IMG/VR virus record: IMGVR_UViG_3300017909_004140
Span: 43,338 to 107,337 of that record
Source: a virus
Lineage: Duplodnaviria > Caudoviricetes
Length of the DNA stretch: 64,000 nucleotides
Reading direction: 5' to 3' (one strand)
Shown here: piece after piece, positions 24,623 to 38,378 of the stretch
Layout: each line of letters opens with the position of its first letter
How positions within the stretch are numbered: position 1 is the stretch's first letter
Notes under the pieces: model-generated
The model's database searches: none
What the model saw: the letters and a program-made list of their open reading frames with translations, nothing else
What the model was told of the DNA's origin: nothing
Position numbers and translations under genes: made by a program

Positions 24623-24945
24623 GCATTGACTATAAATATAATGAGCCTGAGATTTTAGCAGAGATATCTGACTATATAGATAGCACTTATGATCAACACT
24701 ACTCTCTAAATAAATTTCAGGCTACTGAATTTATTATAGACTCAGGGCAAGGAGAAGGTTTTTGTCTTGGTAATATACTAAAATATGCACAACGCTATGG
24801 AAAAAAGAGTGGTAAAAATAGAAAAGATCTGTTGAAGATCATTCATTATGGTGTTATGGCGCTACACAATCATGATCTAGTAGAAGAAGGAAAAAATAAT
24901 GCAAGTAAGGCTGATAAGCTATACCCAGGCAGCAGAGTCCTCTGA
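24619..24945 (+). CDS. DUF3310-like phage protein
   Basis: HY...GFCLGNILKYAQRYGKK...DLLKIIHY. Confidence 0.75.
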   Translation: MSIDYKYNEPEILAEISDYIDSTYDQHYSLNKFQATEFIIDSGQGEGFCLGNILKYAQRYGKKSGKNRKDLLKIIHYGVMALHNHDLVEEGKNNASKADKLYPGSRVL

Positions 24946-25558
24946 TTTAGAAGACGGAAATGCACAAGATCTCATTGCATACTGTGCTAGAGTATCAAAC
25001 CCCTCTAACCAGATGAATAGTGAAACAAGTGCTAAACTGATTAAATACCTAATAAATAATCAGCACTGGTCTCCGCTAGAGATGGTAAATGTTTGTTTAG
25101 AGATTGAGACTACACGAGATATTGCGCATCAGATTGTACGCCATCGCTCATTTTCTTTTCAAGAGTTTTCTCAAAGGTACGCTGATCCAAAAGAGTTTGG
25201 TGATCAGTTTGTAAGACGAGAAGCACGACTTCAAGATAGAAAGAACCGACAAAACTCTATTGAAACTGATGATGAAGAGCTACAAAAACAGTGGTTGATT
25301 CAACAAGATCAGGTGATTTTAGCAGCAGACAAAGCTTATAACTGGGCTATTGAGAATGGAATTGCTAAAGAACAGGCTCGTGTAGTTCTTCCAGAAGGCC
25401 TTACTAAAACTCGTTTATATATGAATGGTACTATTAGAAGCTGGGTACACTATATTCAACTACGCGGAGCAAATGGTACACAAAAAGAACATATGGATAT
25501 CGCTCATGAGTGCGCCAAAGTCATAGCTAATGTTTTTCCAATGGCTGAGTATCTATAA
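24899..25558 (+). CDS. thyX: Flavin-dependent thymidylate synthase
   Basis: ARVS, HWSPLE, QIVRHRSFSFQEFSQRY ThyX motif, EQARVVLP. Confidence 0.95.
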   Translation: MQVRLISYTQAAESSDLEDGNAQDLIAYCARVSNPSNQMNSETSAKLIKYLINNQHWSPLEMVNVCLEIETTRDIAHQIVRHRSFSFQEFSQRYADPKEFGDQFVRREARLQDRKNRQNSIETDDEELQKQWLIQQDQVILAADKAYNWAIENGIAKEQARVVLPEGLTKTRLYMNGTIRSWVHYIQLRGANGTQKEHMDIAHECAKVIANVFPMAEYL

Positions 25559-26197
25559 ACAAGAAAGGTCTCTCATCTCAAAGTGAAATGGAAATAGATA
25601 GCGTTTTACTTTTAAAACACTTTTATCTTCTTCTGTATAAGTAATCCCGTAGCATTTAGTTGCGGGATTTTCTATAGGTTCTTCAATTTCTGGAACCCAA
25701 TCTCCCCAGTACGATTGTACGATAAAATCATGAGAGTTAAAAAAGTAAACATCTCTATAGTTCTTATCTAGTCCATGACTTCTTCCAATGCCAAACTGAT
25801 TACCTATAGCTGATTTATAGGGAAGTTGAGGCAATTCATACTTATACATGTCTGCATCATAAGTTTTTAGCACTCTTTTTTTACTGCTTAGATAGTATTT
25901 TATTGCATAAAAGTCTAGTGAGTTAAAGTTCTCTACTTCAAACTCTTCTCTTAAATAGTGTGGACATTTTTCATCAAAAACAACAACTATTGCGTCTTCT
26001 TCATAAGTAGTGTTATTTTTTGAGTGATAACTAATCATATCATAAGAAAAACATAAATCTTTATTAACCTCTTCACTGAAGTAAGTAAATAGTTTATTTT
26101 TTAATTCTAACACATCAGAATCATTTGAATTACCTTTGTAAACATATTCTACAATATTATCAGAGTCATATTGAATTTCTACAAATTTATCAGTCAT
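25553..26197 (-). CDS. Hypothetical protein, last gene of the radical SAM operon
   Basis: Coupled ORF; overlaps the thyX stop tail-to-tail. Confidence 0.6.
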   Translation of the reverse strand: MTDKFVEIQYDSDNIVEYVYKGNSNDSDVLELKNKLFTYFSEEVNKDLCFSYDMISYHSKNNTTYEEDAIVVVFDEKCPHYLREEFEVENFNSLDFYAIKYYLSSKKRVLKTYDADMYKYELPQLPYKSAIGNQFGIGRSHGLDKNYRDVYFFNSHDFIVQSYWGDWVPEIEEPIENPATKCYGITYTEEDKSVLKVKRYLFPFHFEMRDLSCL

Positions 26198-26873
26198 ATC
26201 CTTGTTCTACCTTTTCTTTTATAAACTTTGCTAGCCTGTTAATCCAGAAATAACGAGTCCAATGAACTATTATGCTTACAGGATTTTTACCATTTAATAC
26301 GGCTCCTCCTATGAGAAGTCTACAATAGTACCATCTTTTGTATTTTCGACCAAAACAGTGGTTCCAGTTTTCAGTTTCTTTTTCGATAACCTCTTTAGGT
26401 ATCTCTTCTCCTGCTTTTGTAAAGTATAGCTTGTCTTCAATCTTAAACCAATTTTGGGTTTCATCCATAGTTGGGTCGTCCATTACTTCGTGATAATCAT
26501 TAAAAGGATCATATAAATTTATATTAGTTTGAGATTCTTGATAAAAAACTCTATACTGCGGTAATTTTGCTTTGACTACTTGTTTAGCAAAAGCATCTCT
26601 CGATTTTTTAGACCCAAAACAAATAACAACAAAAGATTCTTCCATCCAATCATGCCCTTCGCAAGAAGAACAGGTTAAATATCCTTTTTTGTTAAGTATC
26701 TCCACTAGAGGCCAAATACCAGGATCTACTTGAGATTTAAACTCTTTCATGTATGGAGAGACAGATACGCCAACCCAATTATTACCTGTAACTGTGGCAT
26801 TGACTCGTCCGTTATCGTGTAGCCAGTTTTTCTTTGTAAAATGCTCTTTTCTATAAAAATCTTTTTTATTCAT
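26190..26873 (-). CDS. Hypothetical protein with an LTCSSCEGH motif
   Basis: VDPGIWPLVEILNKKGYLTCSSCEGH, weakly reminiscent of the Tyw3 N-terminus. Confidence 0.5.
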   Translation of the reverse strand: MNKKDFYRKEHFTKKNWLHDNGRVNATVTGNNWVGVSVSPYMKEFKSQVDPGIWPLVEILNKKGYLTCSSCEGHDWMEESFVVICFGSKKSRDAFAKQVVKAKLPQYRVFYQESQTNINLYDPFNDYHEVMDDPTMDETQNWFKIEDKLYFTKAGEEIPKEVIEKETENWNHCFGRKYKRWYYCRLLIGGAVLNGKNPVSIIVHWTRYFWINRLAKFIKEKVEQGYD

Positions 26874-27382
26874 CTAGGCGTAATTCCTGTAATACACAAG
26901 TTAAAAGTATCAGTTAGTAAAGGAGTTGTTCCATGTACCCACTCTTTATTTATCTGATCACATATGATTACTAGCCCTGTATAAGGAGTTATTTTTTTAA
27001 TATTATTTTTTGTTCCGTATAAAAAGTCTCTACCTTTCATGTCTTTTTCAATATAGTAAATCATAATTTGAACTAATCCACCAAAAGCATTGTCTGTGTG
27101 TAGGTCTACATACTCATTTTTATCTGTTTTATACGCTTCAAAAGTTTCTAATTTATCTAGAAGCTTTTGTAGATACAAATCTACTTTTGTATATAGTTGT
27201 TTGATGAAGAATTGATTAAGATAAGGAGGCATGCCTAGTGTAGACCAACTTACTTCTTTTCCTAGTTGCTTATCTTCATTTGGATAAAAAGTTAATGATT
27301 TTAGTTCTGTTTTTATATTTTTAGGTATTGTAATGCTATCAAAAGCAAAACCATTTTCTATAACTTCTTTGTATGTAATCAT
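26870..27382 (-). CDS. 2OG-Fe(II) oxygenase
   Basis: HTD...WVHG facial triad on a DSBH-like pattern. Confidence 0.65.
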   Translation of the reverse strand: MITYKEVIENGFAFDSITIPKNIKTELKSLTFYPNEDKQLGKEVSWSTLGMPPYLNQFFIKQLYTKVDLYLQKLLDKLETFEAYKTDKNEYVDLHTDNAFGGLVQIMIYYIEKDMKGRDFLYGTKNNIKKITPYTGLVIICDQINKEWVHGTTPLLTDTFNLCITGITPR

Positions 27383-28035
27383 TTTACTAGTATAACTCCT
27401 ACAAAGTTGTATGCTTTCCAGAATACTTCATACTTTTTAAAACCTATTTCTTCTATTTCTTGTAAGATATCTTCCCAAGATCTTATATTCATAGAGGCTC
27501 TTAACTCTTTTTCTTTGAGCATAATATCATCATATCTAAAGAATTTAGCTTTATAATCATAGTTTGCAAAAGTAAACACTTCTTGTAACATTGAGTCGCT
27601 AGAATACGTTTTTTCACAGAGTATTAAGGCTCCGTTAGGTATTAAAGAATCATATATATTTTTTAATACTGTTACTCTATCAGCAGTAGGTAAAAATTGA
27701 AGAGTAAACATAGAGACAGCCAAAGAAACATCAGTGCCAAACTCTAGCTTTCTCACATCTTCAATTTTAAACTCTATATCATTATCTTCCCAGTGAGAAC
27801 AAAAAGCTGTTTCATTATCTATTCCAATATATGAAACATTTTTAGCATGTGATGCTTTTTTTATTTTTCTTAAATTTTTACCAGTAGAACATCCTAAGTC
27901 ATACACTATAGTGTTATCTTGTATAAAAAAACCTGCAATAGTAGTTATCATAGTGCTTAGAGTTTTATATGAAATAATACTTTTTGATATATGATTATCA
28001 AACCCAAACGAGTGTTTTGCAAAGCTAAAACGCAT
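27379..28035 (-). CDS. CmoA-like class I SAM methyltransferase / carboxy-SAM synthase
   Basis: FDNHISKSI..Y, VYDLGCSTG, GIDN, FTLQFL, LILCEK. Confidence 0.75.
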   Translation of the reverse strand: MRFSFAKHSFGFDNHISKSIISYKTLSTMITTIAGFFIQDNTIVYDLGCSTGKNLRKIKKASHAKNVSYIGIDNETAFCSHWEDNDIEFKIEDVRKLEFGTDVSLAVSMFTLQFLPTADRVTVLKNIYDSLIPNGALILCEKTYSSDSMLQEVFTFANYDYKAKFFRYDDIMLKEKELRASMNIRSWEDILQEIEEIGFKKYEVFWKAYNFVGVILVK

Positions 28036-28939
28036 TTTTATACCTGCTTAGTAAATTTATGTACCCATTACAGCTGTTTTTTAAGTCTTTTACAAAACGA
28101 TAGTGTTCTGTTAGGCAGTGTCCTTTCCAAGAGCAATTTTGACAAACAGTAGAGAGAGACTTTTTTTCTTGCCACGCCCATTGTTCATATGTGTTGTAGT
28201 TAGTAAACTCTAAGAAATACTCTTTATCGTTTTTGTCAAAGTCTAGTACTGCATATTTACCATTAGGAGTTATATAGATGTGATCATCTGAAAAAGCATT
28301 ATACTCTTTTGTTAACGATCTTTTAATTCTTGCTTTATTTTCAAAATGAAATTTCTTCTTTATTTTAGATTCCATCCATTTCACAACAAAGTTTTCAAAA
28401 TCTCTATGACTTACTGCGTCTGCATTAGCTTGGTTTATACTATAGGGTTTTATTTCAACAGACTTAACAGCTTTACACATATTTAATTTAGATATCATCA
28501 TATCAACATCTAAATTTAGAACTCTTTTAGAAGCCAGAATTAGAACCGCTATAGGTTTAGAACTCATTAACATATTATTAAAAACTATGTCTGATTTTTC
28601 TCTTGCTGAAAAATCATATGAGACGGAAAGAGTGACATCATCCTCGAAGAATCTGTCGTCAAGCATAGAAAAATTAGTATTAATATTGATGTAATCATGA
28701 TAATGTTTGCGTATAACGGATTTAATTTCTTTGTAGTATTCTTTTTTAAGTGCGCCAATCTCTCCTCCGTATAAGTCTACGTGATCTATTTTTGGAATAT
28801 TTGATAATAGTAGGTCTAGTTTTTCTGGGCTAATTCTTTTTTGATTTCCTAACTGTTCTGGAGTTAAATAACAAAAGTCACATCTGAAATTACAAAAATA
28901 ACTAGGATTTATTGAGACTGAAAATATTTTATCCACCAT
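28025..28939 (-). CDS. Radical SAM enzyme with C-terminal Cys cluster (rSAM 4)
   Basis: CNFRCDFCY, YGGE, C-terminal CQNC..GHC..EH...C. Confidence 0.88.
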   Translation of the reverse strand: MVDKIFSVSINPSYFCNFRCDFCYLTPEQLGNQKRISPEKLDLLLSNIPKIDHVDLYGGEIGALKKEYYKEIKSVIRKHYHDYININTNFSMLDDRFFEDDVTLSVSYDFSAREKSDIVFNNMLMSSKPIAVLILASKRVLNLDVDMMISKLNMCKAVKSVEIKPYSINQANADAVSHRDFENFVVKWMESKIKKKFHFENKARIKRSLTKEYNAFSDDHIYITPNGKYAVLDFDKNDKEYFLEFTNYNTYEQWAWQEKKSLSTVCQNCSWKGHCLTEHYRFVKDLKNSCNGYINLLSRYKNAF

Positions 28940-29334
28940 CTATACTCTTTTCCATTTATAGTTTCATAGTCTTTAGGCTCAAATCCAAATTTTTTTAATA
29001 ATGTGTCTACTCTTTTATGACGACTTAATCCCCAAAGCGGGTTTCCGTTTTCTGGGGTTACAGCATAATTACCCAGTTTATATATTGCGTCAGTGCCTTG
29101 ATATTTTTTATCTATTAAGATAGTTTCAAGATACTCTCCTCTATCAATAGAAACTACTGTATAGTATCCTATAGGTTTATTTTCTAGATAAAGTAGATGT
29201 GCTCTTTGTTTTTGTATTAACTCAATAAAATCATCTTTTTCATCACGTTCTTCTTTTGTCATGTTATAAGATAGAGCAATTAGTATTGGTAAATCATTGA
29301 TGCTAGCTTTTTTAGTTTTGTATATCAAGAACAT
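28909..29334 (-). CDS. GNAT-fold acyltransferase
   Basis: PIGY..., LETILIDKKYQGT (motif A), LLKKFGF. Confidence 0.6.
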   Translation of the reverse strand: MFLIYKTKKASINDLPILIALSYNMTKEERDEKDDFIELIQKQRAHLLYLENKPIGYYTVVSIDRGEYLETILIDKKYQGTDAIYKLGNYAVTPENGNPLWGLSRHKRVDTLLKKFGFEPKDYETINGKEYRWWIKYFQSQ

Positions 29335-30109
29335 CTCCTAATATTCTAATGTCTTGTTCGTGATGCATATTGTGTTCTCTTTTTATCATTGGAGTAATTC
29401 TTGTATCCCAAGATATGCTTATTCTAGGCATTTTAGACTGGTTAGGCTCTACTTCGTGCCAAACCCACGAGGGAAATAGAATGAATTTACCTATTTCAGG
29501 CTTTATGGTAATGTTAGTTGGATTAACTGATTTTGTAGGTTTATCAAAGGTATCGACATAATCACCAAATAAACCAGAAAACTCTAAAGTACTATTATTC
29601 ATCTGTCTACCGTATTCATTATATCTAGAAGTATGATTATGTCTAATAGCATCACTACTTGTTTCGTCACCTGCTTTAGTCAGCATCTCTAAATCTAAAT
29701 ATCCAAAATCCATCATATTAGAATTACCTTTTGGATCTACCATGAGTAGATGACTGTCATGGTCGTTTAACCAAATAGTCCCACTAATATGGTTATTAGG
29801 GTGGTTGTGAATTCCAACATTTTGACTTTGGGGAAGCACATGCGCCCAGGCATAAGACTTTATATCATATTGATCGGACTCAAATAAGTTATTTTTTATA
29901 TACTCTTTTATTGCAGGTACTAAATTATCGTGGTAAAGTGTTTGTAGTAAAGGCTCATCTAAACTAAACAAGTTAAATACCTCTGTCACTTCATCAGGAT
30001 TGTGATATTTATTCAATATATAGTTGAATAAATTTTTAGCTAATTGTTTGTCTACTGTGCCTAAAAGTATAGGAGTTGGCCATAAGTGTCTATGTGTATA
30101 CTGATTCAT
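29312..30109 (-). CDS. 2OG-Fe(II) oxygenase (TIGR02466-like)
   Basis: HNHPNNHISG, LFPSWVWHEV.PN, RISISWD. Confidence 0.8.
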   Translation of the reverse strand: MNQYTHRHLWPTPILLGTVDKQLAKNLFNYILNKYHNPDEVTEVFNLFSLDEPLLQTLYHDNLVPAIKEYIKNNLFESDQYDIKSYAWAHVLPQSQNVGIHNHPNNHISGTIWLNDHDSHLLMVDPKGNSNMMDFGYLDLEMLTKAGDETSSDAIRHNHTSRYNEYGRQMNNSTLEFSGLFGDYVDTFDKPTKSVNPTNITIKPEIGKFILFPSWVWHEVEPNQSKMPRISISWDTRITPMIKREHNMHHEQDIRILGDVLDIQN

Positions 30110-31163
30110 TTACATACTCCGTTGGTATTGCGTCTAGTTTACATATATCTATAATATCAGGTGCTAAAGATTTCATTTTTTTACAATGAATTTCTGTTAA
30201 ATTTAGTCTTTTTAGATCACTGATAGTTTTTCTACATCCATTACATATTTTAAACATTGGACAGGTTAAGCATGATTGTTTTAACACCATTAAGTTAAAA
30301 TCGTTTTGCAATGGGGTTTCTATTTCTTTTTGTGACATCTCTTTGTCAAAATCAATTTTATACTCTTTATCATCTCCAAAAGCTCCACAAGAATAATAGT
30401 CTCCTCCAGGATTTAAGTTTCTAATACTTTCATCACAACGTCTATTTTGTGGGCAGGTAGTATTCGAAGAAAATCTTTTCAATAGCTGAGTAGTATTATA
30501 CTCCCACTCTGAAAGACCTAGTTTGTATATCTGTAAATATTTTTCATATATATCTGCTAGCAAATATGTGTAGTTTTCTAGCCCCATTTTTATACCATTT
30601 AAGAATTTTATTTCAGGCCCGCTCGCTACAGCATAGTTTAACTTACAAACTACTCCCATTTTTTTAGCTAGTAGCACATTATCAATCGCTTTATCCTCGT
30701 TTTCTTTTGTAATTACGGATATGAAATCTGGACGGTAGCCTACTAATTCTTTCATTTTATTTGAAACATTCCAAAAATCTTCTTCACTAAACTCTGTGAA
30801 GTCCCCTTTTAAGCGTCCTCCTCCATATTGAAATGAGGTACATACTCCGACTCTAGGATGCTTAAATAGATTTAACCATTTGTTAGGATTTTTATAAAAA
30901 GGCCAAAGATTAGTAGTTAATGAAATAGTTGTTTCTAAAGCATGCTCCTCTAAATATTCAATTATTTTCCAGTAGTAGTCAGGAGACATCATTAGAGGAT
31001 CACCACCATTTACTATAATAGTGTTTGTATAAGGAAATCTTTTTAGAAACTGAAATATTTTATCATGAGAGAGTTCTACTGTCTTGGAGTCTGCTATTTT
31101 TGTACTTGAGCAAAAAGTACATTTAAAGTTGCAGCGCTCTGTAGGTTTAATTATTAATTCCAT
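30090..31163 (-). CDS. Radical SAM/SPASM enzyme (rSAM 3)
   Basis: IIKPTERCNFKCTFC, GGDP; SPASM CPQNRRC..YSC..CLTCPMFKICNGC..HC. Confidence 0.92.
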   Translation of the reverse strand: MELIIKPTERCNFKCTFCSSTKIADSKTVELSHDKIFQFLKRFPYTNTIIVNGGDPLMMSPDYYWKIIEYLEEHALETTISLTTNLWPFYKNPNKWLNLFKHPRVGVCTSFQYGGGRLKGDFTEFSEEDFWNVSNKMKELVGYRPDFISVITKENEDKAIDNVLLAKKMGVVCKLNYAVASGPEIKFLNGIKMGLENYTYLLADIYEKYLQIYKLGLSEWEYNTTQLLKRFSSNTTCPQNRRCDESIRNLNPGGDYYSCGAFGDDKEYKIDFDKEMSQKEIETPLQNDFNLMVLKQSCLTCPMFKICNGCRKTISDLKRLNLTEIHCKKMKSLAPDIIDICKLDAIPTEYVNESVYT

Positions 31164-32136
31164 CTAAAAACCCCCAATAGTCTTTCAACCAGCAATGCTC
31201 CATAGTAGCTTTTTCTGGTAGTATGTGATTTTCTTGGAAACAACCTAAGCCACACTTACTAAAATAATCACACATTAAACAATTGAATCCTTCTATCCAT
31301 TTTGCTTCCATTTTTTCTCTACTATCGTGGGTCATAGCTCTATAGTTACCTCCTACTAGTAGATTACAATGACCTATTTCTCCATCAGCAGCTATTACAC
31401 TTGTTCTCTGACAGGTTAAATTTTTTCTAGTATCTCCTAATAAATACTTATCTATAGGACTGACTTTAGGATAATTGATACTTAAAAATTTAAACATATC
31501 TAGCAGTTCTGTATCACTAGGGCAGTTTATACTAGCATTTTTTTCAGGAGTGTAGTAGTCAAAATATATATTAAAATTCTCATATAGATAGTCAAATCCA
31601 GTAACTTCTTTGTTTAAAAACTTATAAATATTGGGAGCTGTTAATATGATGTTTACTGTTTGAATATACTCTTTAAAATATCTCACATTATCCATAAAAA
31701 CATCTAACTGGTTAGTATTAAAGCGCCCAGCTGGATCATAACTAACAGCAAGATTTATATTAAGCCTATCTAATAAATTTTTTACTCTGACTCTATCATT
31801 CCATATCATATTAGAAGTAATAAGAAATTCACTATTTTCAAACGATTTTTGGCACCTAAGAATTAAAGACTCAATTTTACTTAAAATTTGATTTGAAATT
31901 TCATCACTCAGAATCTCTCCTCCCATAAAATGAAAGGAAAATTGTTCTTTATTTTGTGCGCGTAAGTTTTCGTAGACGCTTTTTATCGCAAAGTATTTTT
32001 CTGGGATGGAGTTCACACCCTCAAATGAATTATGATTTTGAGAACAAAAACTACACGCAAGATTACAGTGTTCGAATAGGGTAACAATAACCTCTCCTAG
32101 ATTAGACGATTTTTTATCTATTACACTACTGTACAT
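31147..32136 (-). CDS. Radical SAM/SPASM-like enzyme (rSAM 2)
   Basis: CNLACSFC, MGGE; C..GHC..CLMCDYFSKCGLGC..HC. Confidence 0.9.
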   Translation of the reverse strand: MYSSVIDKKSSNLGEVIVTLFEHCNLACSFCSQNHNSFEGVNSIPEKYFAIKSVYENLRAQNKEQFSFHFMGGEILSDEISNQILSKIESLILRCQKSFENSEFLITSNMIWNDRVRVKNLLDRLNINLAVSYDPAGRFNTNQLDVFMDNVRYFKEYIQTVNIILTAPNIYKFLNKEVTGFDYLYENFNIYFDYYTPEKNASINCPSDTELLDMFKFLSINYPKVSPIDKYLLGDTRKNLTCQRTSVIAADGEIGHCNLLVGGNYRAMTHDSREKMEAKWIEGFNCLMCDYFSKCGLGCFQENHILPEKATMEHCWLKDYWGFLDGINN

Positions 32137-33265
32137 AACCTTCTCTGAAACTATGGTGATCTGTTAGTTGCCAACTTCTTACTTTTTTAGTATTTCTTTC
32201 TTTATTATTTACAAAAGGTTTAAACTTATCTCTTTTTTCTTCTAGTGAGTATTCTAACAACTTATCATATCTTTTTTCTTTACAAAGTAGGTAAAAATAT
32301 CTTAGCAAATAGTGGGTTGTTTTGTCTTGGTGTTGATACTCTCCTATGTTACCTCCTGCATATATGGTATTGATATCTATATCAATAATTTTTCTTAAGC
32401 CAATCTCTCCCGTAATGAATAGTTCCATTAACTGCTCGCTGTCAAAAAACCCATTATGTCCATACTTCATCACTGATTTACGATATAACTTAAAAATAGT
32501 TTTCATATCGTAGTTGTTTTTAACATATTCTAAACTAGGATAAGCTTTTATATTCTCATCCATTAGCCAACTATATTCATCAGGTAGTTTTAAATCTGCA
32601 TACTCTGCGGTTTCATATAAGTGAGATCCATAATCAACATTTTCTAATAAGTCTCCTAGTTCGAACAGCTGACACATTACATTCATTTTCCAGTAGGTAA
32701 GTTCGTTCAGCACTGTATCTGCAACTATACCATATAGTTTTTTATACAAAATATCTTTATGTGCATATTTTGTGTTAGATAAATAACTAGCTAAGTGTAG
32801 CTCTGTGCAAGCTCCTTTTATATAACTACTATTTAACTCATGTTTATTACACTGTTCATATACTTTATTGAACTCCTCAAAAGATAATAGTTTTAAAGAA
32901 TCCCAAGGAGACCGTAAATTTATAGAACCATCGTCGTGTGATAAGCATGATTTTCCATGAAGATATATATGCTTTTGTAATACTAGCTTATAAAAGTGAT
33001 AAATAGATAAGGGAGAGTGGTTAGGCAGGATAGATTTTAGATATGTAGTAAGTATTTTTACATAAGTTTCTTCTTCTGCTAAAACTATAAGTTCAGTATC
33101 TTTTTTGATGTTTTTGAAAGCATCGTTACCAAACAAGTCATCAGCATCTTTAAAATAATTCCAAGTGCTAGGAATAGGTGCTTCATACCCAACTAAGAAT
33201 TTAGGAGTGTCCGGAGGGTAACAAAAGCTAAAATCTAGATAAACATTATTTATTAGGTTGAACAC
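32126..33265 (-). CDS. Hypothetical protein in the radical SAM operon
   Basis: 379-aa coupled ORF, no recognised motif. Confidence 0.65.
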   Translation of the reverse strand: MFNLINNVYLDFSFCYPPDTPKFLVGYEAPIPSTWNYFKDADDLFGNDAFKNIKKDTELIVLAEEETYVKILTTYLKSILPNHSPLSIYHFYKLVLQKHIYLHGKSCLSHDDGSINLRSPWDSLKLLSFEEFNKVYEQCNKHELNSSYIKGACTELHLASYLSNTKYAHKDILYKKLYGIVADTVLNELTYWKMNVMCQLFELGDLLENVDYGSHLYETAEYADLKLPDEYSWLMDENIKAYPSLEYVKNNYDMKTIFKLYRKSVMKYGHNGFFDSEQLMELFITGEIGLRKIIDIDINTIYAGGNIGEYQHQDKTTHYLLRYFYLLCKEKRYDKLLEYSLEEKRDKFKPFVNNKERNTKKVRSWQLTDHHSFREGYVQ

Positions 33266-33944
33266 CGGCTGCTATCCCTGATACAAATACTAAAAGTGGC
33301 ACATTATGTTCAAGCATCCAGCCGTATAAATTTTGTTCGTCATAGATATATTCTTCAGAATAGTGTTTAAAATACCTTTTTCTAGAACCAGAGGTTTCGT
33401 ATATTTCAAATATAAAAGGGTTATTAATTAGGTTAATAACATTTTTACCTAATATTTCTGGGTCATCTACTACTTCATAATTTTTTAACTCTTCGTTTAC
33501 AAAATCACTCAGAGAAGATACAAAAGAAAGAGTTGTAATAGGAAGTGACTCTAAGAAATCTGTAGTGTTTAACAGTTCATTATAAAATTCGTCAATAAAC
33601 TTATCTGTCCATTCCTCAGTTAAAAGACTCATAGAGTATAAATCATCAACATCTATATTATTATATTTAAGTACAATGTAGGTTAGCCCTAGCTCAAGCT
33701 CTTTACAGGTGATTAAATTGTTAGATGTAAAGTATAGCCTTAATAGTTCATACTTTTCTTCTTGTGTAGTGTTGTATAGATTAAGTTTAAAATCAATATC
33801 TAGATTAGATACATAATTAAAAAACGTTCTACCACTGATATCACTATCATAATACATTATTTCAAACTGTATTTTTTCTTCTTCCATAAAATATTGTTGT
33901 AAAAGCTCTACGTCAATAGGTGCTTTTGTTTTTATAACTCTCAT
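33246..33944 (-). CDS. Hypothetical acidic protein in the radical SAM operon
   Basis: ATGA-coupled to the candidate substrate gene. Confidence 0.65.
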   Translation of the reverse strand: MRVIKTKAPIDVELLQQYFMEEEKIQFEIMYYDSDISGRTFFNYVSNLDIDFKLNLYNTTQEEKYELLRLYFTSNNLITCKELELGLTYIVLKYNNIDVDDLYSMSLLTEEWTDKFIDEFYNELLNTTDFLESLPITTLSFVSSLSDFVNEELKNYEVVDDPEILGKNVINLINNPFIFEIYETSGSRKRYFKHYSEEYIYDEQNLYGWMLEHNVPLLVFVSGIAAGVQPNK

Positions 33945-34540
33945 CTTCTTCCTCTTGAACTATGACAGTTACTATGACAGCTTGCGTGGCAAGTATCTAC
34001 AAATATAGTAACTTGATTTTCTTTTAAAGTATTCCACTGACTATATAGATTAGCTATATAATCTTCAAAATTAGAGGCGTCTATAACATCTCCTTCTTGA
34101 ATATCATATGTAGCGCTATTATCTGTAACAGTTTGTTTATACGCAGAACCATCTAAGTGAATAAAATCAGTAGTGGTTCTTTGTTGTACATTATTTCCAT
34201 TACCGCTAGGATATCCCGTTCTGTTAAAACGCAGTCTCCAGTTTAGTTTTCTAACTCCTGTATAGTCTCTCGTTAGGTTACGTAAATAAGTTGCTAACTG
34301 TGCCGCATCTACTACTGCGTCTAGTCCCCCGCTAACTGCGGGGGCTACAGTGGGAGTTCCTACTACTGAAAAAGGCACTCCTCCTTTAGGCGCGTTAGTT
34401 AGATTTGAATATGTTCCTGAAGAGAAAGGTGTTCCTGTTCCTACATCAATAACGGGGTTTATAGCATCTCTCATTACTTCGTTAAATCGGTTAACAACTA
34501 GTGCTTTGCTTACTTCATCTCCTGCATTAATAGTCGGCAT
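33941..34540 (-). CDS. Candidate modification substrate: virion-like protein with a C-terminal (C-H-x-S/N)3-RGRR core
   Basis: Ends in DTCHASCHSNCHSSRGRR; Gly/Thr/Ala-rich body; strong AGGAG RBS. Confidence 0.6.
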   Translation of the reverse strand: MPTINAGDEVSKALVVNRFNEVMRDAINPVIDVGTGTPFSSGTYSNLTNAPKGGVPFSVVGTPTVAPAVSGGLDAVVDAAQLATYLRNLTRDYTGVRKLNWRLRFNRTGYPSGNGNNVQQRTTTDFIHLDGSAYKQTVTDNSATYDIQEGDVIDASNFEDYIANLYSQWNTLKENQVTIFVDTCHASCHSNCHSSRGRR

Positions 34541-35564
34541 AATATTCTCCTTGCTTTAATACCTGTATGGGGGTATTTTTTATTAGTTTAAATAGTTCTT
34601 TTGGCGAAGGACAGTGTGATTCATCCCACTCTAATTGATGACATCCGCTACCACACAAATCAAATACTTCGCATTTATAACATCTTTCGTCTCTAGCTGC
34701 TTCACAAGCTATTAGTTCCATTCTTTTAGGTTTGAAAATTAATTCCCAAATCTCTTCATTTATATTACCATAAACTTCTTCAGGAGCAGCATTAGGACAT
34801 CCGCTTATACTACCATCTGCATTTATAGTAAATAATTTTTGTTCACAGTCTCTACAAAAAGTAGCCGCTTGAGTTCCATTTGTTCTTGTTTTGACCATAG
34901 AGTTTATAAATGAATCAGTCCAGTTTTTAGGAGTGGTGTCTTTGTAAATTTCTAAAAACCAATCAGCCTGTTCTTTATTACTGGGAAATATCTCAGGATG
35001 TTTTTTAGCATTTCCATGATCTGTAAGTCTTTCAAAATCTACTACATCTACGTTCAATGAGTTAAAATACTCTATAATTTCTTTAGGTTTAGTATTACAA
35101 AGTTCCTTGGTAACACTCACAAACATCGTTATAAAACAATCTAGCTCTTTTAATCTTTTTACATTTTTCTCCCAAAGAGTTTTTTGTTTTTCATTAGAAA
35201 ACCGTATACTTTTATCCCAAGAAGTTCCAATAACTCCTTTTAAGTCTTCAGTAATAAATTTAATTTTTTCTTCACTTAAATTAAAAGTTAAGTTACTAGT
35301 AATACCAAATGAGACGTTATCATCATACTTCATACTATCAACTACATATTTCATATCTTTAACAGGAGCAAGAAAAGGCTCTCCTCCGTGAAACTCAAAA
35401 TGAATATGATTCGTTTTATAGTGCTTTCTTAATTTTTTTATCCAATCTACTGTTCTTTTAGGATTAAAGTATATTTTTCTACCGTTTATTCCGTTTGTAA
35501 AACAGTGTTTACAATTGAGCTGACAAGTTTCCGTGGTTTTCAGATAAACTGTTATAGGATGCAT
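34527..35564 (-). CDS. Radical SAM/SPASM peptide-maturase-like enzyme (rSAM 1)
   Basis: YLKTTETCQLNCKHC, FHGGEP; SPASM CRDC..GCP..CYKCEVFDLCGSGC..HC. Confidence 0.92.
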   Translation of the reverse strand: MHPITVYLKTTETCQLNCKHCFTNGINGRKIYFNPKRTVDWIKKLRKHYKTNHIHFEFHGGEPFLAPVKDMKYVVDSMKYDDNVSFGITSNLTFNLSEEKIKFITEDLKGVIGTSWDKSIRFSNEKQKTLWEKNVKRLKELDCFITMFVSVTKELCNTKPKEIIEYFNSLNVDVVDFERLTDHGNAKKHPEIFPSNKEQADWFLEIYKDTTPKNWTDSFINSMVKTRTNGTQAATFCRDCEQKLFTINADGSISGCPNAAPEEVYGNINEEIWELIFKPKRMELIACEAARDERCYKCEVFDLCGSGCHQLEWDESHCPSPKELFKLIKNTPIQVLKQGEYYADY

Positions 35565-36123
35565 CGTTTTCCATCTGTAGTGTCTGTAATTTTAAATCAA
35601 TATACTTGTAGTATTTTCTTATACCAAAACTTAATGAAACATTTTCTGTAAGATTGTCTGCATAATGAGCTTTTTCTCCTGGTATAAACACAGACTCGCC
35701 TGCTTTAAGAACAACTTCTTCCTTATGGTCTGGAAATACCATCTTTTTAGTTCCAGAAAGAAGTAGTATTACTACATCATAAGGATCTACGTGAGCAATA
35801 AAACTCGACTTTCCTTCTTTTCCCCAGTATAAGTGACAATCTATATATTCTTCTTCAGTTTTGAAGTTACATATCGTTGAAATGAACTCATCGTATTTTT
35901 CAAACCCTTCTACTTTAAATGTGTTCTTGCTCTTTGCTTTTATTTTTGTTAAAGTATTTTTATAAGAGTTCGGAAATACCATATTTTCTTCAGCATTTTC
36001 AATGTAGAATACTTTTCCATCTCTTATGAAATGATAATTAGTTATCAATTCTATAGGTTTTATATTATGATATTTTTCGTACAATTCATGCGAAAAAGTT
36101 TTTATATGGTTAGATAAATTCAT
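35509..36123 (-). CDS. JmjC/cupin 2OG oxygenase (RoxA/YcfD-like protein hydroxylase)
   Basis: SFIAHVDPYDV...GTKK...LKAGESVFIP...HYA...SLSFG. Confidence 0.75.
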   Translation of the reverse strand: MNLSNHIKTFSHELYEKYHNIKPIELITNYHFIRDGKVFYIENAEENMVFPNSYKNTLTKIKAKSKNTFKVEGFEKYDEFISTICNFKTEEEYIDCHLYWGKEGKSSFIAHVDPYDVVILLLSGTKKMVFPDHKEEVVLKAGESVFIPGEKAHYADNLTENVSLSFGIRKYYKYIDLKLQTLQMENDASYNSLSENHGNLSAQL

Positions 36124-36342
36124 ATGGCTATGATACCACTAAACAAGAATTTTAGCAAGAAAAATTTTACTGCAATTTGTACAGAATGTGGAGAAGACTA
36201 CTCTACTAAAAGAAAAGCATTAGGTTATGATACGTGTTTAGATTGTGGAGAAGATAAGCGAATATTTCCAACAGCTCCAGCTTTTAATAAAGGAGCTTAC
36301 ACTATAGTAACAATGAACAACGTAAGGGATATAGGTAAATGA
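36124..36342 (+). CDS. DksA/TraR-like C4 zinc-finger protein
   Basis: CTECGEDYSTKRKALGYDTCLDC. Confidence 0.65.
   Translation: MAMIPLNKNFSKKNFTAICTECGEDYSTKRKALGYDTCLDCGEDKRIFPTAPAFNKGAYTIVTMNNVRDIGK
36130..36158 (-). promoter_or_regulatory. Promoter of the radical SAM operon (predicted leaderless)
   Basis: Minus strand TTGCTA-N17-(TGn)TATCAT, then 6 nt, then ATG 36123. Confidence 0.65.
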
Positions 36343-37571: not shown

Positions 37572-38378
37572 ATGACAAAAAAATATATTGCAGTAAGTGG
37601 TGGATTTGATCCAGTACATAAAGGTCATTTAGAGATGATTGAAGAAGCAGCAGAGCATGGTGATGTTGTTGTGCTTCTTAATTCTGATAAATGGCTAGCT
37701 AGTAAAAAAGGCAAAGCTTTTATGGACGAAGAGCAACGCTCTTATATTATGTCGTCTATTAAAGGAGTCGTTAATGTTATTATTGGGGATGACTCTGATG
37801 GAACTGTTTTAGACGCACTAAAACAGTTTAAAGAACAATATTCTGATGAAGAGGTAGAACTTTGCTTTGCTAATGGCGGAGATAGAAAAAATGATAATGT
37901 TCCTGAGGTTGAGTACTGCTTAGTAAATGACATTCAATTACTTTGGAATATTGGGGGAGAAAAAACACAATCTTCTTCTCATTTATTATCTAATTGGGCA
38001 GGGGAGCACTGTGTTAGAGATTGGGGGACTTGGACAGTTCTAAAAGATTATGGATCAGTAAAAGTAAAAGAGCTACATGTGCTACCAGATAAAGAATTAT
38101 CTTTTCAAAAACATGAACATCGTTCTGAACATTGGTATGTTGTAAAAGGCACAGCGTATATTTATAATGGTAAAGTTATTCCAGGGGAGGTTGTAAAACA
38201 ACATAATACAGTAGACATTCCTCAAGGGGCTTGGCACCAGTTGTGTAACTATTCAACTACTGAACCTCTTTTTATTTTAGAGGTACAACAAGGAGAAAAG
38301 TGTATTGAAGAAGATATTGAGCGTATTGATGCTCCTCGCCACGATTGGAGAGGCAAACGCGACGGAAAATCTATCTAA
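37572..38378 (+). CDS. Nucleotidyltransferase (HldE/RfaE-like) fused to a mannose-6-phosphate-isomerase-type cupin
   Basis: SGGFDPVHKGH, NSD, FANGGDR, KTQSSS; C-terminal RDWG..LSFQKHEHRSEHW..EVQQG...EEDIER. Confidence 0.85.
   Translation: MTKKYIAVSGGFDPVHKGHLEMIEEAAEHGDVVVLLNSDKWLASKKGKAFMDEEQRSYIMSSIKGVVNVIIGDDSDGTVLDALKQFKEQYSDEEVELCFANGGDRKNDNVPEVEYCLVNDIQLLWNIGGEKTQSSSHLLSNWAGEHCVRDWGTWTVLKDYGSVKVKELHVLPDKELSFQKHEHRSEHWYVVKGTAYIYNGKVIPGEVVKQHNTVDIPQGAWHQLCNYSTTEPLFILEVQQGEKCIEEDIERIDAPRHDWRGKRDGKSI

What the first reader, a model, noticed from the sequence alone, without database searches (positions are those of the whole stretch)
33941..34540. Candidate precursor: virion-like scaffold with a C-terminal CHAS-CHSN-CHSS-RGRR core
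Seen: all three Cys and three of the four His lie in the last 16 residues, in a strict 4-residue period followed by RGRR. The body has three loosely repeated G-x-x-(V/I)-x-A-helix segments (NAGDEVSKA, GLDAVVDAA, QEGDVIDAS) and a Gly/Thr/Ala-rich composition like the structural genes. Established: rSAM-SPASM enzymes form Cys thioether crosslinks (sacti/ranthipeptides) and aromatic-X-X cyclophanes (triceptides), and His-Xaa-Ser repeat peptides are associated with rSAM maturases. Inference: H-A-S, H-S-N and H-S-S or the Cys residues are the crosslink sites. A ~180-aa 'leader' is unusually long, which suggests a modified fibre tip or a metal-binding host-recognition element.
Basis: partly seen in the sequence, partly recalled or inferred. 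Interest (0 to 1): 0.85.

Follow-up and report, generated by a model that had tools for sequence, protein, structure and literature searches.

The report
Radical-SAM-linked Cys-His tail on phage protein
This small folded phage protein ends in a nearly invariant 16-residue Cys-His-x-Ser tail and is always encoded among the same four radical-SAM enzymes, and a relative is found in purified phage particles, so it is probably a virus-particle protein whose tail is chemically modified, a step that no paper I could find describes.

Summary
Window 33941-34540 (minus strand) encodes a 199-aa protein ending CHAS-CHSN-CHSS-RGRR. All 3 Cys and 3 of its 4 His lie in the last 16 residues.

It belongs to a large unnamed family: 202 clusters at 50% identity. 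In 131 of 157 members read, the protein ends exactly in (C-H-x-S/N)x3-R-x-R-R. Bodies diverge to 22-35% identity.

In every locus with enough flank, the gene lies in one cassette. These loci are 27 viral contigs, 4 cultured jumbo phages and several MAG contigs. The cassette holds a JmjC cupin, rSAM/SPASM A, this protein, two unknown proteins and rSAM B, C and D.

The Agrobacterium phage Atu_ph07 homologue gp170 was detected in purified virions. It was most abundant in the top gel band, far above its 31.9 kDa. The enzymes were not listed.

The body is a confident alpha/beta fold with no match in the PDB.

Best reading (about 0.6): a virion-associated protein whose tail is the substrate of the co-encoded radical-SAM enzymes. 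The chemistry is untested. His-to-Ser cyclophane, Cys thioether and Cys oxidation are all possible.

The closest analogue is the bacterial HXS system, but membership tests fail.

This scan has met the same family on other DNA many times, with the same reading. Novelty: a new variant of a known kind.

The parts
33941..34540 (-). The finding: a 199-aa protein with an alpha/beta body (residues 1-183) and the tail C184-H-A-S-C-H-S-N-C-H-S-S-R-G-R-R199.
   Evidence: ORF and sequence. Family and tail conservation. AF2 pLDDT 81.8, pTM 0.80. No Pfam or NCBIfam hit; phrog_35144 (unknown function) matches residues 126-199 only.
33941..33991 (-). DNA that encodes the 16-residue tail plus the stop codon. 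The stop overlaps the ATG of the next gene by 4 nt (ATGA).
34527..35564 (-). rSAM/SPASM enzyme A, 345 aa, with no N-terminal RRE domain. It lies directly upstream of the target in almost all loci.
   Evidence: The CxxxCxxC motif is at residues 14-21. SPASM TIGR04085 E 8.9e-9. Full-length but sub-threshold hits to DarE, anSME, PapB and YhhB. The closest solved structure is anSME 4K36-4K39. Synteny.
35509..36123 (-). JmjC-type cupin (PF08007 JmjC_2), the first gene of the cassette.
   Evidence: Found upstream of rSAM A in most loci.
33246..33944 (-). Conserved unknown protein (232 aa, phrog_20767), always just downstream of the target.
   Evidence: AF2 pLDDT 90.1. No convincing PDB fold match: Foldseek found none, and the best VIA Z was 5.3 over 57 residues.
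32126..33265 (-). Conserved unknown protein (379 aa, phrog_36207). It is the same family as the 350-390-aa gene that follows unk232 in distant loci.
   Evidence: hhalign probability 98%, E 2.5e-13.
31147..32136 (-). rSAM enzyme B (329 aa, weak SPASM signal).
30090..31163 (-). rSAM/SPASM enzyme C (357 aa), the most conserved gene of the cassette (55-68% identity in loci where the target is 24-33% identical).
28025..28939 (-). rSAM enzyme D (304 aa), a core member of the cassette.
25553..30109 (-). Variable accessory genes interleaved with rSAM D in the same overlapping operon: a 2OG-Fe(II) oxygenase (29312-30109), a GNAT-like protein (28909-29334), a SAM methyltransferase (27379-28035) and three unknowns.
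   Evidence: They are present only in close relatives or scattered among distant loci.

Best explanation
The gene encodes a folded, structural-type phage protein that is the dedicated protein substrate of a conserved maturation cassette. The cassette consists of a JmjC-type oxygenase, four radical-SAM enzymes (at least two with SPASM auxiliary-cluster domains) and two unknown helper proteins.

Proposed mechanism:
- The flexible 16-residue tail, (Cys-His-x-Ser/Asn)x3-Arg-Gly-Arg-Arg, protrudes from the last beta-strand of the body and is the modification site.
- The minimal, RRE-less rSAM/SPASM enzymes act on it as anSME acts on sulfatases or HxsB/HxsC on HxsA.
- Each C-H-x-S unit is one site. 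The Cys probably docks on the SPASM auxiliary cluster or is itself cross-linked or oxidised.
- H-x-S/N fits the three-residue motif in which His C2 is joined to the beta-carbon of the third residue.
- The JmjC enzyme, from the family that hydroxylates His and Arg in proteins, may add hydroxyl groups.
- The matured protein is then built into the virus particle, near the tail, baseplate or fibre apparatus. There the rigid, basic, possibly cross-linking tail serves assembly, stability or cell attack.

Shown: the family, the invariance of the tail, the universal gene linkage, the fold, and virion presence of a homologue.
Inferred: that the tail is modified, which chemistry is used, and the role in the particle.
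For: (1) Tail invariance against a fast-evolving body. Nine invariant and two more than 90% conserved tail positions in 97 sequences with 19% mean column identity. The strict motif sits at the very C-terminus in 131 of 157 members.

(2) Linkage. The cupin, rSAM A, target, unk232, rSAM B, C and D were found in all 27 viral loci and in the MAG loci with enough flank. Co-occurrence holds even where gene order is shuffled (L032, L039). The same arrangement is in cultured phages RSF1, Atu_ph07, pPa_SNUABM_DT01 and Phosso.

(3) The enzymes are 40-68% identical where the target is 24-33% identical. That is the pattern expected for conserved enzymes acting on a conserved tail attached to a diversifying body.

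(4) rSAM A and C are full-length, RRE-less SPASM enzymes. Their nearest named relatives are all peptide or protein maturases: DynA, DarE, anSME, PapB and YhhB. The nearest solved structure is anSME.

(5) Virion presence. Atu_ph07 gp170 (calculated 31,894 Da, against 31.89 kDa in the table) was detected with 8 unique peptides and 35% coverage. It ran in gel bands 1-9 and was most abundant in band 1, where 127-kDa gp20 runs. No entry for gp165, 168, 169, 171 or 172 appears in that supplementary file (PMC6102473 Table S5).

(6) The target has the strongest ribosome-binding site of the operon and a fibre-like composition. One family member is fused to a glycine-rich domain (PF21722, Gly_rich_2).

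(7) Precedents. rSAM enzymes mature a full-size HxS-repeat protein, with +8 Da on SHRSS (PMC13128918). rSAM cyclophane synthases join His C2 to the beta-carbon of residue 3 in the HAA, HTK and HNR motifs (PMC11499958).
Against: - No modification has been observed for any family member. The published Atu_ph07 table does not say whether the tail peptide was seen.
- Gene linkage in phages can reflect inheritance of a module rather than a shared pathway.
- Three Cys plus three His could simply bind a metal.
- All rSAM hits are far below the curated family cut-offs, so the chemistry cannot be assigned.
- The oxygen-dependent JmjC and 2OG enzymes sit oddly beside oxygen-sensitive rSAM enzymes.
- The high gel position of gp170 could be aggregation, since many proteins in that table smear over many bands.
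- Virion presence is shown for a 296-aa homologue in a distant jumbo phage, not for this phage.
- An earlier check of a similar claim on other DNA was recorded as 'part of it fell', without saying which part.
Confidence: 0.6

Rival explanations
1. The tail is an unmodified metal site (Zn, Fe, Ni, or an Fe-S cluster shared between subunits) on a structural protein. The radical-SAM cassette acts on something else, such as the neighbouring fibres, a sugar or a nucleotide.
For: There are three Cys-His pairs with a period of 4, and the tail is flexible in the monomer model. Cys/His-rich C-terminal tails on metal-handling proteins are established knowledge. The cassettes lie in regions rich in fibre and sugar-enzyme genes.
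Against: A plain metal site does not explain the near-invariant Ser at the fourth place of each unit or the invariant R-x-R-R end. It also does not explain why the gene keeps its place between rSAM A and unk232, or why co-occurrence survives rearrangement. No other candidate substrate is conserved in the cassette.
Confidence: 0.15
2. The protein is a helper of the enzymes rather than their substrate. It might be an Fe-S or iron donor, a scaffold, or an electron-transfer partner that docks through its Cys-His tail.
For: The cassette encodes up to seven iron enzymes that need cofactor loading. The tail is rich in iron ligands. The gene is translationally coupled to its neighbours.
Against: The Atu_ph07 homologue is in virions while the enzymes are not listed. 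The body evolves much faster than the enzymes, which is unusual for a docking partner. It has a structural composition and the strongest ribosome-binding site of the operon. It has no known ferredoxin, flavodoxin or scaffold fold.
Confidence: 0.1
3. It is a classical RiPP precursor. The 16-residue tail is modified, cut off and released as a small bioactive peptide (a metallophore, toxin or signal), and the body is a long leader.
For: There is a C-terminal core with a repeated motif next to rSAM/SPASM maturases. Weak similarity to cyclophane, sacti- and ranthipeptide maturases.
Against: No peptidase or exporter is conserved in the cassette. The body is a confident folded domain with its own conserved residues. 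The enzymes lack RRE domains. The homologue is a virion protein.
Confidence: 0.07

Closest known systems
HXS antiphage system (HxsA effector matured by rSAM enzymes HxsB and HxsC with HxsD; Li et al., Nat Commun 2026, PMC13128918)
   Same: Radical-SAM enzymes mature a full-size folded protein, not a short peptide, that carries tandem His-x-Ser units. His and Ser of the modified unit are essential, and more than one rSAM enzyme plus a small helper is needed.
   Different: - HXS is bacterial and defensive. This cassette is phage-borne, and the protein is virion-associated.
- HxsA has five contiguous HxS repeats inside the protein plus a peptidoglycan-binding domain. Here there are three C-H-x-S units with a period of 4 at the extreme C-terminus, followed by RGRR.
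- No family member hits the HxsA models.
- The rSAM enzymes score 35-38 bits against cut-offs of 268-370.
Anaerobic sulfatase-maturating enzyme (anSME, TIGR03942, PDB 4K36-4K39) and its sulfatase substrate
   Same: It is a minimal rSAM/SPASM enzyme without an RRE that acts on a short Cys/Ser motif of a whole protein. It is the nearest solved structure to rSAM A over the full length. The last unit, C-H-[G/S]-S-R, shares Cys and Arg at +4 with the C/S-x-P/A-x-R motif.
   Different: There is no Pro or Ala at +2. The scores are 58-60 bits against a cut-off of 349. There is no sulfatase domain, and there are four enzymes and three repeated units.
Triceptide (three-residue cyclophane) RiPPs with His as the first residue: HaaB, HtkB, YhhB (PMC11499958)
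   Same: H-A-S, H-S-N and H-S-S fit the aromatic/His-X-X motif, in which His C2 is joined to the beta-carbon of residue 3. The maturases are rSAM/SPASM enzymes. rSAM A aligns with YhhB over its full length (E 4.7e-13).
   Different: Those substrates are short leader-core peptides and natural products. The score here is 48.8 bits against a cut-off of 445. The invariant Cys before each His has no counterpart.
CXXX-repeat rSAM target system (maturase TIGR04115; target PF27846)
   Same: A Cys at every fourth residue in a protein encoded next to rSAM maturases. It is the nearest named cluster in the protein atlas (score 0.80, a lead only).
   Different: The maturase hits are 21-31 bits against a cut-off of 350. 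No model hit was found for the target. Here His and Ser are as invariant as Cys, and there are only three units.
QhpD/QhpC (rSAM/SPASM enzyme installing Cys-to-Asp/Glu thioethers in a dehydrogenase subunit)
   Same: rSAM/SPASM cross-linking of Cys residues in a protein that stays part of a larger assembly (established knowledge). There is a weak hit of rSAM A to TIGR03906.
   Different: The hit covers only the N-terminal rSAM core (33 bits against 453). There are no Asp or Glu acceptors in the tail.

Membership tests
HXS system (HxsA/B/C/D) | The effector matches the HxsA models (His-Xaa-Ser repeat protein). | tested here: not met
   0 NCBIfam families for the window protein. None of 97 family members hits an Hxs model at E <= 0.1.
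HXS system (HxsA/B/C/D) | The rSAM enzymes are HxsB and HxsC equivalogs. | tested here: not met
   HxsB 37.9 bits (cut-off 370) for rSAM A. HxsC 35.0 bits (cut-off 267.9) for rSAM C, over the N-terminal core only.
HXS system (HxsA/B/C/D) | A peptidoglycan-binding domain and contiguous internal HxS repeats. | tested here: not met
   No Pfam domain. The repeats are C-H-x-S with a period of 4 at the C-terminus.
Triceptide cyclophane RiPPs | An aromatic/His-X-X motif in the substrate. | tested here: met
   H-A-S, H-S-N and H-S-S. The third residue is Ser or Asn in more than 90% of members.
Triceptide cyclophane RiPPs | The maturase belongs to a cyclophane-forming rSAM/SPASM family (YhhB, XyeB, FxsB, GrrM). 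| tested here: not met
   Best score 48.8 bits against a cut-off of 445 (YhhB). The others are lower.
Triceptide cyclophane RiPPs | A C-C cross-link (minus 2 Da per motif) in the product. | not testable with these tools
   Needs mass spectrometry or NMR of the matured protein.
anSME / sulfatase maturation | The enzyme is an anSME equivalog (TIGR03942). | tested here: not met
   59.5 and 57.7 bits against a cut-off of 349.45, although anSME is the closest solved structure.
anSME / sulfatase maturation | The substrate motif C/S-x-P/A-x-R. | tested here: not met
   The last unit is C-H-[G/S]-S-R. Cys and Arg fit, but position +2 is Gly or Ser in 107 of 131 members and never Pro.
CXXX-repeat rSAM target system | The maturase matches TIGR04115. 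| tested here: not met
   31.5 bits (rSAM A) and 21.2 bits (rSAM B) against a cut-off of 350.
CXXX-repeat rSAM target system | The target matches the CXXX-repeat target model (PF27846). | tested here: inconclusive
   Only a feature-similarity lead of 0.80 in the protein atlas. There was no hit in the local Pfam copy, and that copy may not hold this model.
Sacti-/ranthipeptides | The maturase is an equivalog of PapB, CteB or a similar enzyme, and the precursor is a short leader-core peptide. | tested here: not met
   PapB 57.9 bits against 340. The substrate is a 199-aa folded protein.
Phage virion (structural) proteins | Detected in purified particles. | tested here: inconclusive
   Met for the homologue Atu_ph07 gp170 (8 peptides, 35% coverage; PMC6102473 Table S5). 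Not tested for this uncultured phage.

The most novel reading that the evidence does not exclude
Radical-SAM chemistry is used to build a virus particle. The enzymes would convert the (Cys-His-x-Ser)x3 tail into a rigid or reactive cross-linking handle that covalently rivets this protein to itself or to another tail, baseplate or fibre protein. That would explain why the 32-kDa Atu_ph07 homologue runs in the top gel band after boiling in SDS. It would be a previously unknown, widespread class of enzymatic covalent virion maturation, shared with fibre-bearing predatory bacteria.
Probability: 0.25. Interest if true: 0.9.

Novelty: new variant of a known kind. Interest (0 to 1): 0.78.

Why it matters
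If the tail is modified as proposed, this would be the first case of radical-SAM post-translational chemistry applied to a virion protein. The system is widespread: marine T4-like phages and jumbo phages of Ralstonia, Burkholderia, Pseudomonas, Agrobacterium and Sinorhizobium. It is directly testable, because cultured phages carry it. It would explain why many large phages carry clusters of radical-SAM genes, which genome papers list without comment. It would add a new substrate motif and probably new chemistry to the rSAM/SPASM maturases. It would also give a phage-side counterpart to the bacterial HXS defence, which uses the same kind of His-x-Ser protein maturation.

Tried and rejected
- Family libraries. 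Pfam, NCBIfam and PHROGs give the protein no name. Only phrog_35144 (unknown function) matches, on residues 126-199.
- tblastn against the phage collection found nothing, with either the window protein or a typical member. The low-complexity filter probably masks the tail. The cultured-phage homologues were reached through rSAM C instead.
- Fold searches of the body. Foldseek against the PDB gave nothing at E <= 0.001. The VIA wide search gave a best Z of 3.8. BFVD returned only uncharacterised family members. A profile search of PDB sequences gave nothing. This does not prove a new fold.
- unk232 folds confidently but has no match either.
- Glycyl-radical site at R-G-R-R: rejected, because the Gly is replaced in 25 of 131 members.
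- c-type haem attachment (CxxxCH occurs twice): considered unlikely. The motifs overlap and there is no haem lyase in the cassette. I also saw no signal peptide by reading the N-terminus, but ran no predictor.
- The RP12/RP31 jumbo-phage rSAM cluster is a different cluster and gives no information here.
- Sigma-70-like promoters, terminators and the T4 late-promoter word are not enriched around the operon.
- Literature searches found no paper that describes this family or cassette. Genome papers only list the genes.

Full report
**What is there**

The window is part of a 107-kb uncultured virus record. On the minus strand, 33941-34540 encodes a 199-aa protein. It starts at an ATG preceded by AAGGAG, the best ribosome-binding site among the 14 genes of a tightly overlapping operon, 25553-36123. 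The protein ends VDT-CHAS-CHSN-CHSS-RGRR. All three Cys and three of the four His are in the last 16 residues. Its Gly/Ala/Thr/Ser content (0.33) resembles the neighbouring fibre genes (0.38-0.48), not the enzymes around it (0.17-0.21).

**The family**

A word-indexed search found nine close relatives of 44-86% identity, all with the same tail. An exhaustive HMMER search of 1.84 billion representatives found 202 clusters at E <= 0.001. Almost all matches run to the last residue of both proteins.

Of 157 members read, 131 end exactly in C-H-x-[S/N]-C-H-x-[S/N]-C-H-x-S-R-x-R-R. A few have four or five units, or one extra residue before the Arg block.

In a 97-sequence alignment the mean column identity is 19%. 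Even so, C, H, C, H, C, H, R, R, R are invariant and two Ser are more than 90% conserved. The tail carries 3.75 bits per column against 1.0-1.8 for the body. In the body only R97 is nearly invariant.

No Pfam or NCBIfam model matches any of the 97 members in a meaningful way. Only phrog_35144, of unknown function, matches, and only on residues 126-199.

**The fold**

With the 97-sequence alignment, AlphaFold2 gives a confident alpha/beta domain (pLDDT 81.8, pTM 0.80). It has three long helices, each followed by strands. The tail emerges from the last strand at low confidence.

Profile-profile alignment of the three thirds puts them in register, with P between 0.002 and 3e-5. The domain thus looks like a weak threefold repeat.

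Fold searches found no relative:
- Foldseek against the PDB found nothing.
- An all-against-all structural scan of 48,161 chains gave a best Z of 3.8.
- A profile search of PDB sequences found nothing.
- Viral models matched only uncharacterised relatives, among them the Atu_ph07 protein.

So the body is a real domain, not a long disordered leader.

**The gene context is the strongest evidence**

In all 27 viral contigs recovered with the family profile, the same neighbours recur in nearly the same order:
- a JmjC-type cupin;
- rSAM/SPASM enzyme A;
- the tail protein;
- a 232-aa unknown;
- a 350-390-aa unknown, shown by hhalign to be the family of the window's 379-aa gene (probability 98%);
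- rSAM B;
- rSAM C;
- rSAM D.

The target is only 24-33% identical in the distant loci, while rSAM C is 55-68% and rSAM A 39-52% identical.

The ten hits in prokaryote genome assemblies show the same set wherever the flank is long enough. This includes two loci where the order is scrambled.

Four cultured phage lineages carry it, with the tail protein directly after rSAM A:
- Ralstonia phage RSF1, ORF069-081 (and, by their rSAM C matches only, its Burkholderia and Ralstonia relatives, whose tail protein I did not check);
- Agrobacterium phage Atu_ph07, gp165-172;
- Pseudomonas phage pPa_SNUABM_DT01;
- Sinorhizobium phage Phosso.

The genome papers on these phages list the cupin, radical-SAM and 2OG genes as accessory genes and offer no function. 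A pelagimyophage study mentions radical-SAM cassettes in the host-recognition cluster only in passing.

**The enzymes**

rSAM A and C have the CxxxCxxC motif at the extreme N-terminus, so there is no RRE domain, and a SPASM domain at the C-terminus. Their best named hits are all peptide or protein maturases (DynA, DarE, anSME, PapB, YhhB, CbpB), aligned over the full length. All are five- to ten-fold below the curated cut-offs. The closest solved structure to rSAM A is the anaerobic sulfatase maturase. The cupin is a JmjC_2 family member. It follows from established knowledge of that family (YcfD, NO66, MINA53) that it hydroxylates Arg or His side chains of proteins.

**Virion evidence**

The Atu_ph07 paper reports ESI-MS/MS of purified particles. 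Its Table S5 lists gp170 (31.89 kDa) with 8 unique peptides and 35% coverage. It ran in gel bands 1-9 and was most abundant in band 1. The protein translated from the locus weighs 31,894 Da and ends CHSSCHASCHNSRSRR, so gp170 is the family member.

Band 1 is the top of the gel: 127-kDa gp20 runs there, while 30-kDa proteins peak in bands 7-8. The neighbouring gp165, 168, 169, 171 and 172 do not occur in that supplementary file.

So the homologue is particle-associated and the enzymes are not. It also migrates far above its mass after heating in SDS. That suggests a very stable or covalent assembly, but smearing is common in that table, so I treat it as a hint only.

In the four cultured lineages and in this window the cassette lies within a few kb to about 13 kb of tail, baseplate, spike or fibre genes. 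One family member carries an N-terminal glycine-rich domain (PF21722, Gly_rich_2).

**Interpretation**

The most economical reading is that the tail is the substrate of the co-encoded enzymes and that the product is a virion component. There are two published precedents.
- The bacterial HXS defence system uses two rSAM enzymes and a helper to mature a full-size protein with His-x-Ser repeats. It installs +8 Da on an SHRSS motif whose His and Ser are essential (PMC13128918).
- rSAM cyclophane synthases join His C2 to the beta-carbon of the third residue in the HAA, HTK and HNR motifs (PMC11499958).

H-A-S, H-S-N and H-S-S fit that motif. The invariant Cys before each His could ligate the SPASM auxiliary cluster, form a thioether, or be oxidised as in sulfatase maturation. 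None of this chemistry is shown here.

The family fails the membership tests for HXS, triceptides, anSME, sacti- and ranthipeptides and the CXXX-repeat system. It works like them but is not one of them.

**Rivals**

- A plain metal-binding tail is possible, but it does not explain the invariant Ser and Arg or the gene linkage.
- A helper role for the enzymes is hard to square with virion presence and the fast-evolving body.
- A cleaved RiPP is unlikely without a peptidase or exporter and with a folded, conserved body.

**Distribution**

The family is mainly viral. Among one genome per prokaryote species, a pattern scan gave ten confirmed loci, five of them labelled as Bdellovibrio-like MAGs.

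One locus lies on a 299-kb contig next to ABC phosphonate-transporter genes. Beside it is a pilin-like protein with a tail-fibre chaperone domain, so the locus looks chromosomal. Only that one of 121 sampled genomes of its order has the family, which points to sporadic acquisition.

**Earlier work of this scan**

This scan has noted the same family on other DNA many times (57 notes in at least 35 genomes) and reached the same reading. One related claim was later recorded as having partly fallen, without detail, so the chemistry and the role in the particle should be regarded as open.

**Limits**

Trimer and partner predictions and expression data are therefore missing.

Noticed in passing
L039:17624-18670 (Pseudobdellovibrio MAG, 299-kb contig): Next to the cassette there is a 348-aa protein with an N-terminal prepilin methylation motif and a C-terminal Peptidase_S74 (tail-fibre chaperone) domain. 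ABC phosphonate-transporter genes lie about 8 kb from the tail-protein gene on the other side. The cassette therefore seems chromosomal in a predatory bacterium and linked to a fibre-like protein.
   Followed up: partly
L039:7180-8907; also ORFs of 567-592 aa in L007, L008, L020 and L036: A roughly 575-aa protein with weak B12-binding and radical-SAM signals (a class B rSAM type) sits inside the cassette in several distant loci. It is absent from this window.
   Followed up: partly
window 36121-36126: The first gene of the minus-strand operon (start 36123) and the plus-strand DksA-like zinc-finger gene (start 36124) abut back to back with no intergenic base. Both promoters must lie inside coding sequence. 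No convincing promoter was found by the consensus scan.
   Followed up: partly
window 37572-38820: A fused cytidylyltransferase and mannose-6-phosphate-isomerase cupin gene overlaps a cell-wall hydrolase (Hydrolase_2) gene by 74 nt. This lies just upstream of a 720-aa fibre with a Peptidase_S74 chaperone end and a 953-aa glycine-rich protein with no Pfam match.
   Followed up: no
L029:10861-11977 (Ralstonia phage RSF1): Two dihydrofolate-reductase genes and an HNH endonuclease are inserted between rSAM B and rSAM C of the cassette. In this window a ThyX gene (24899-25558) abuts the end of the operon.
   Followed up: no
BFVD hits A0A8S5USJ8, A0A8S5USJ7 and A0A8S5USV2 (Myoviridae sp. ctijX18): Three paralogous proteins of 504-660 aa from one phage share the body fold of the tail protein (TM 0.46-0.50). 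The domain may also occur inside larger structural proteins.
   Followed up: no
L035 (contig of a MAG labelled Gemella, human gut): This is a reduced version of the cassette: a tail protein with rSAM A-like and rSAM C-like genes only. It hints at the minimal enzyme set.
   Followed up: no
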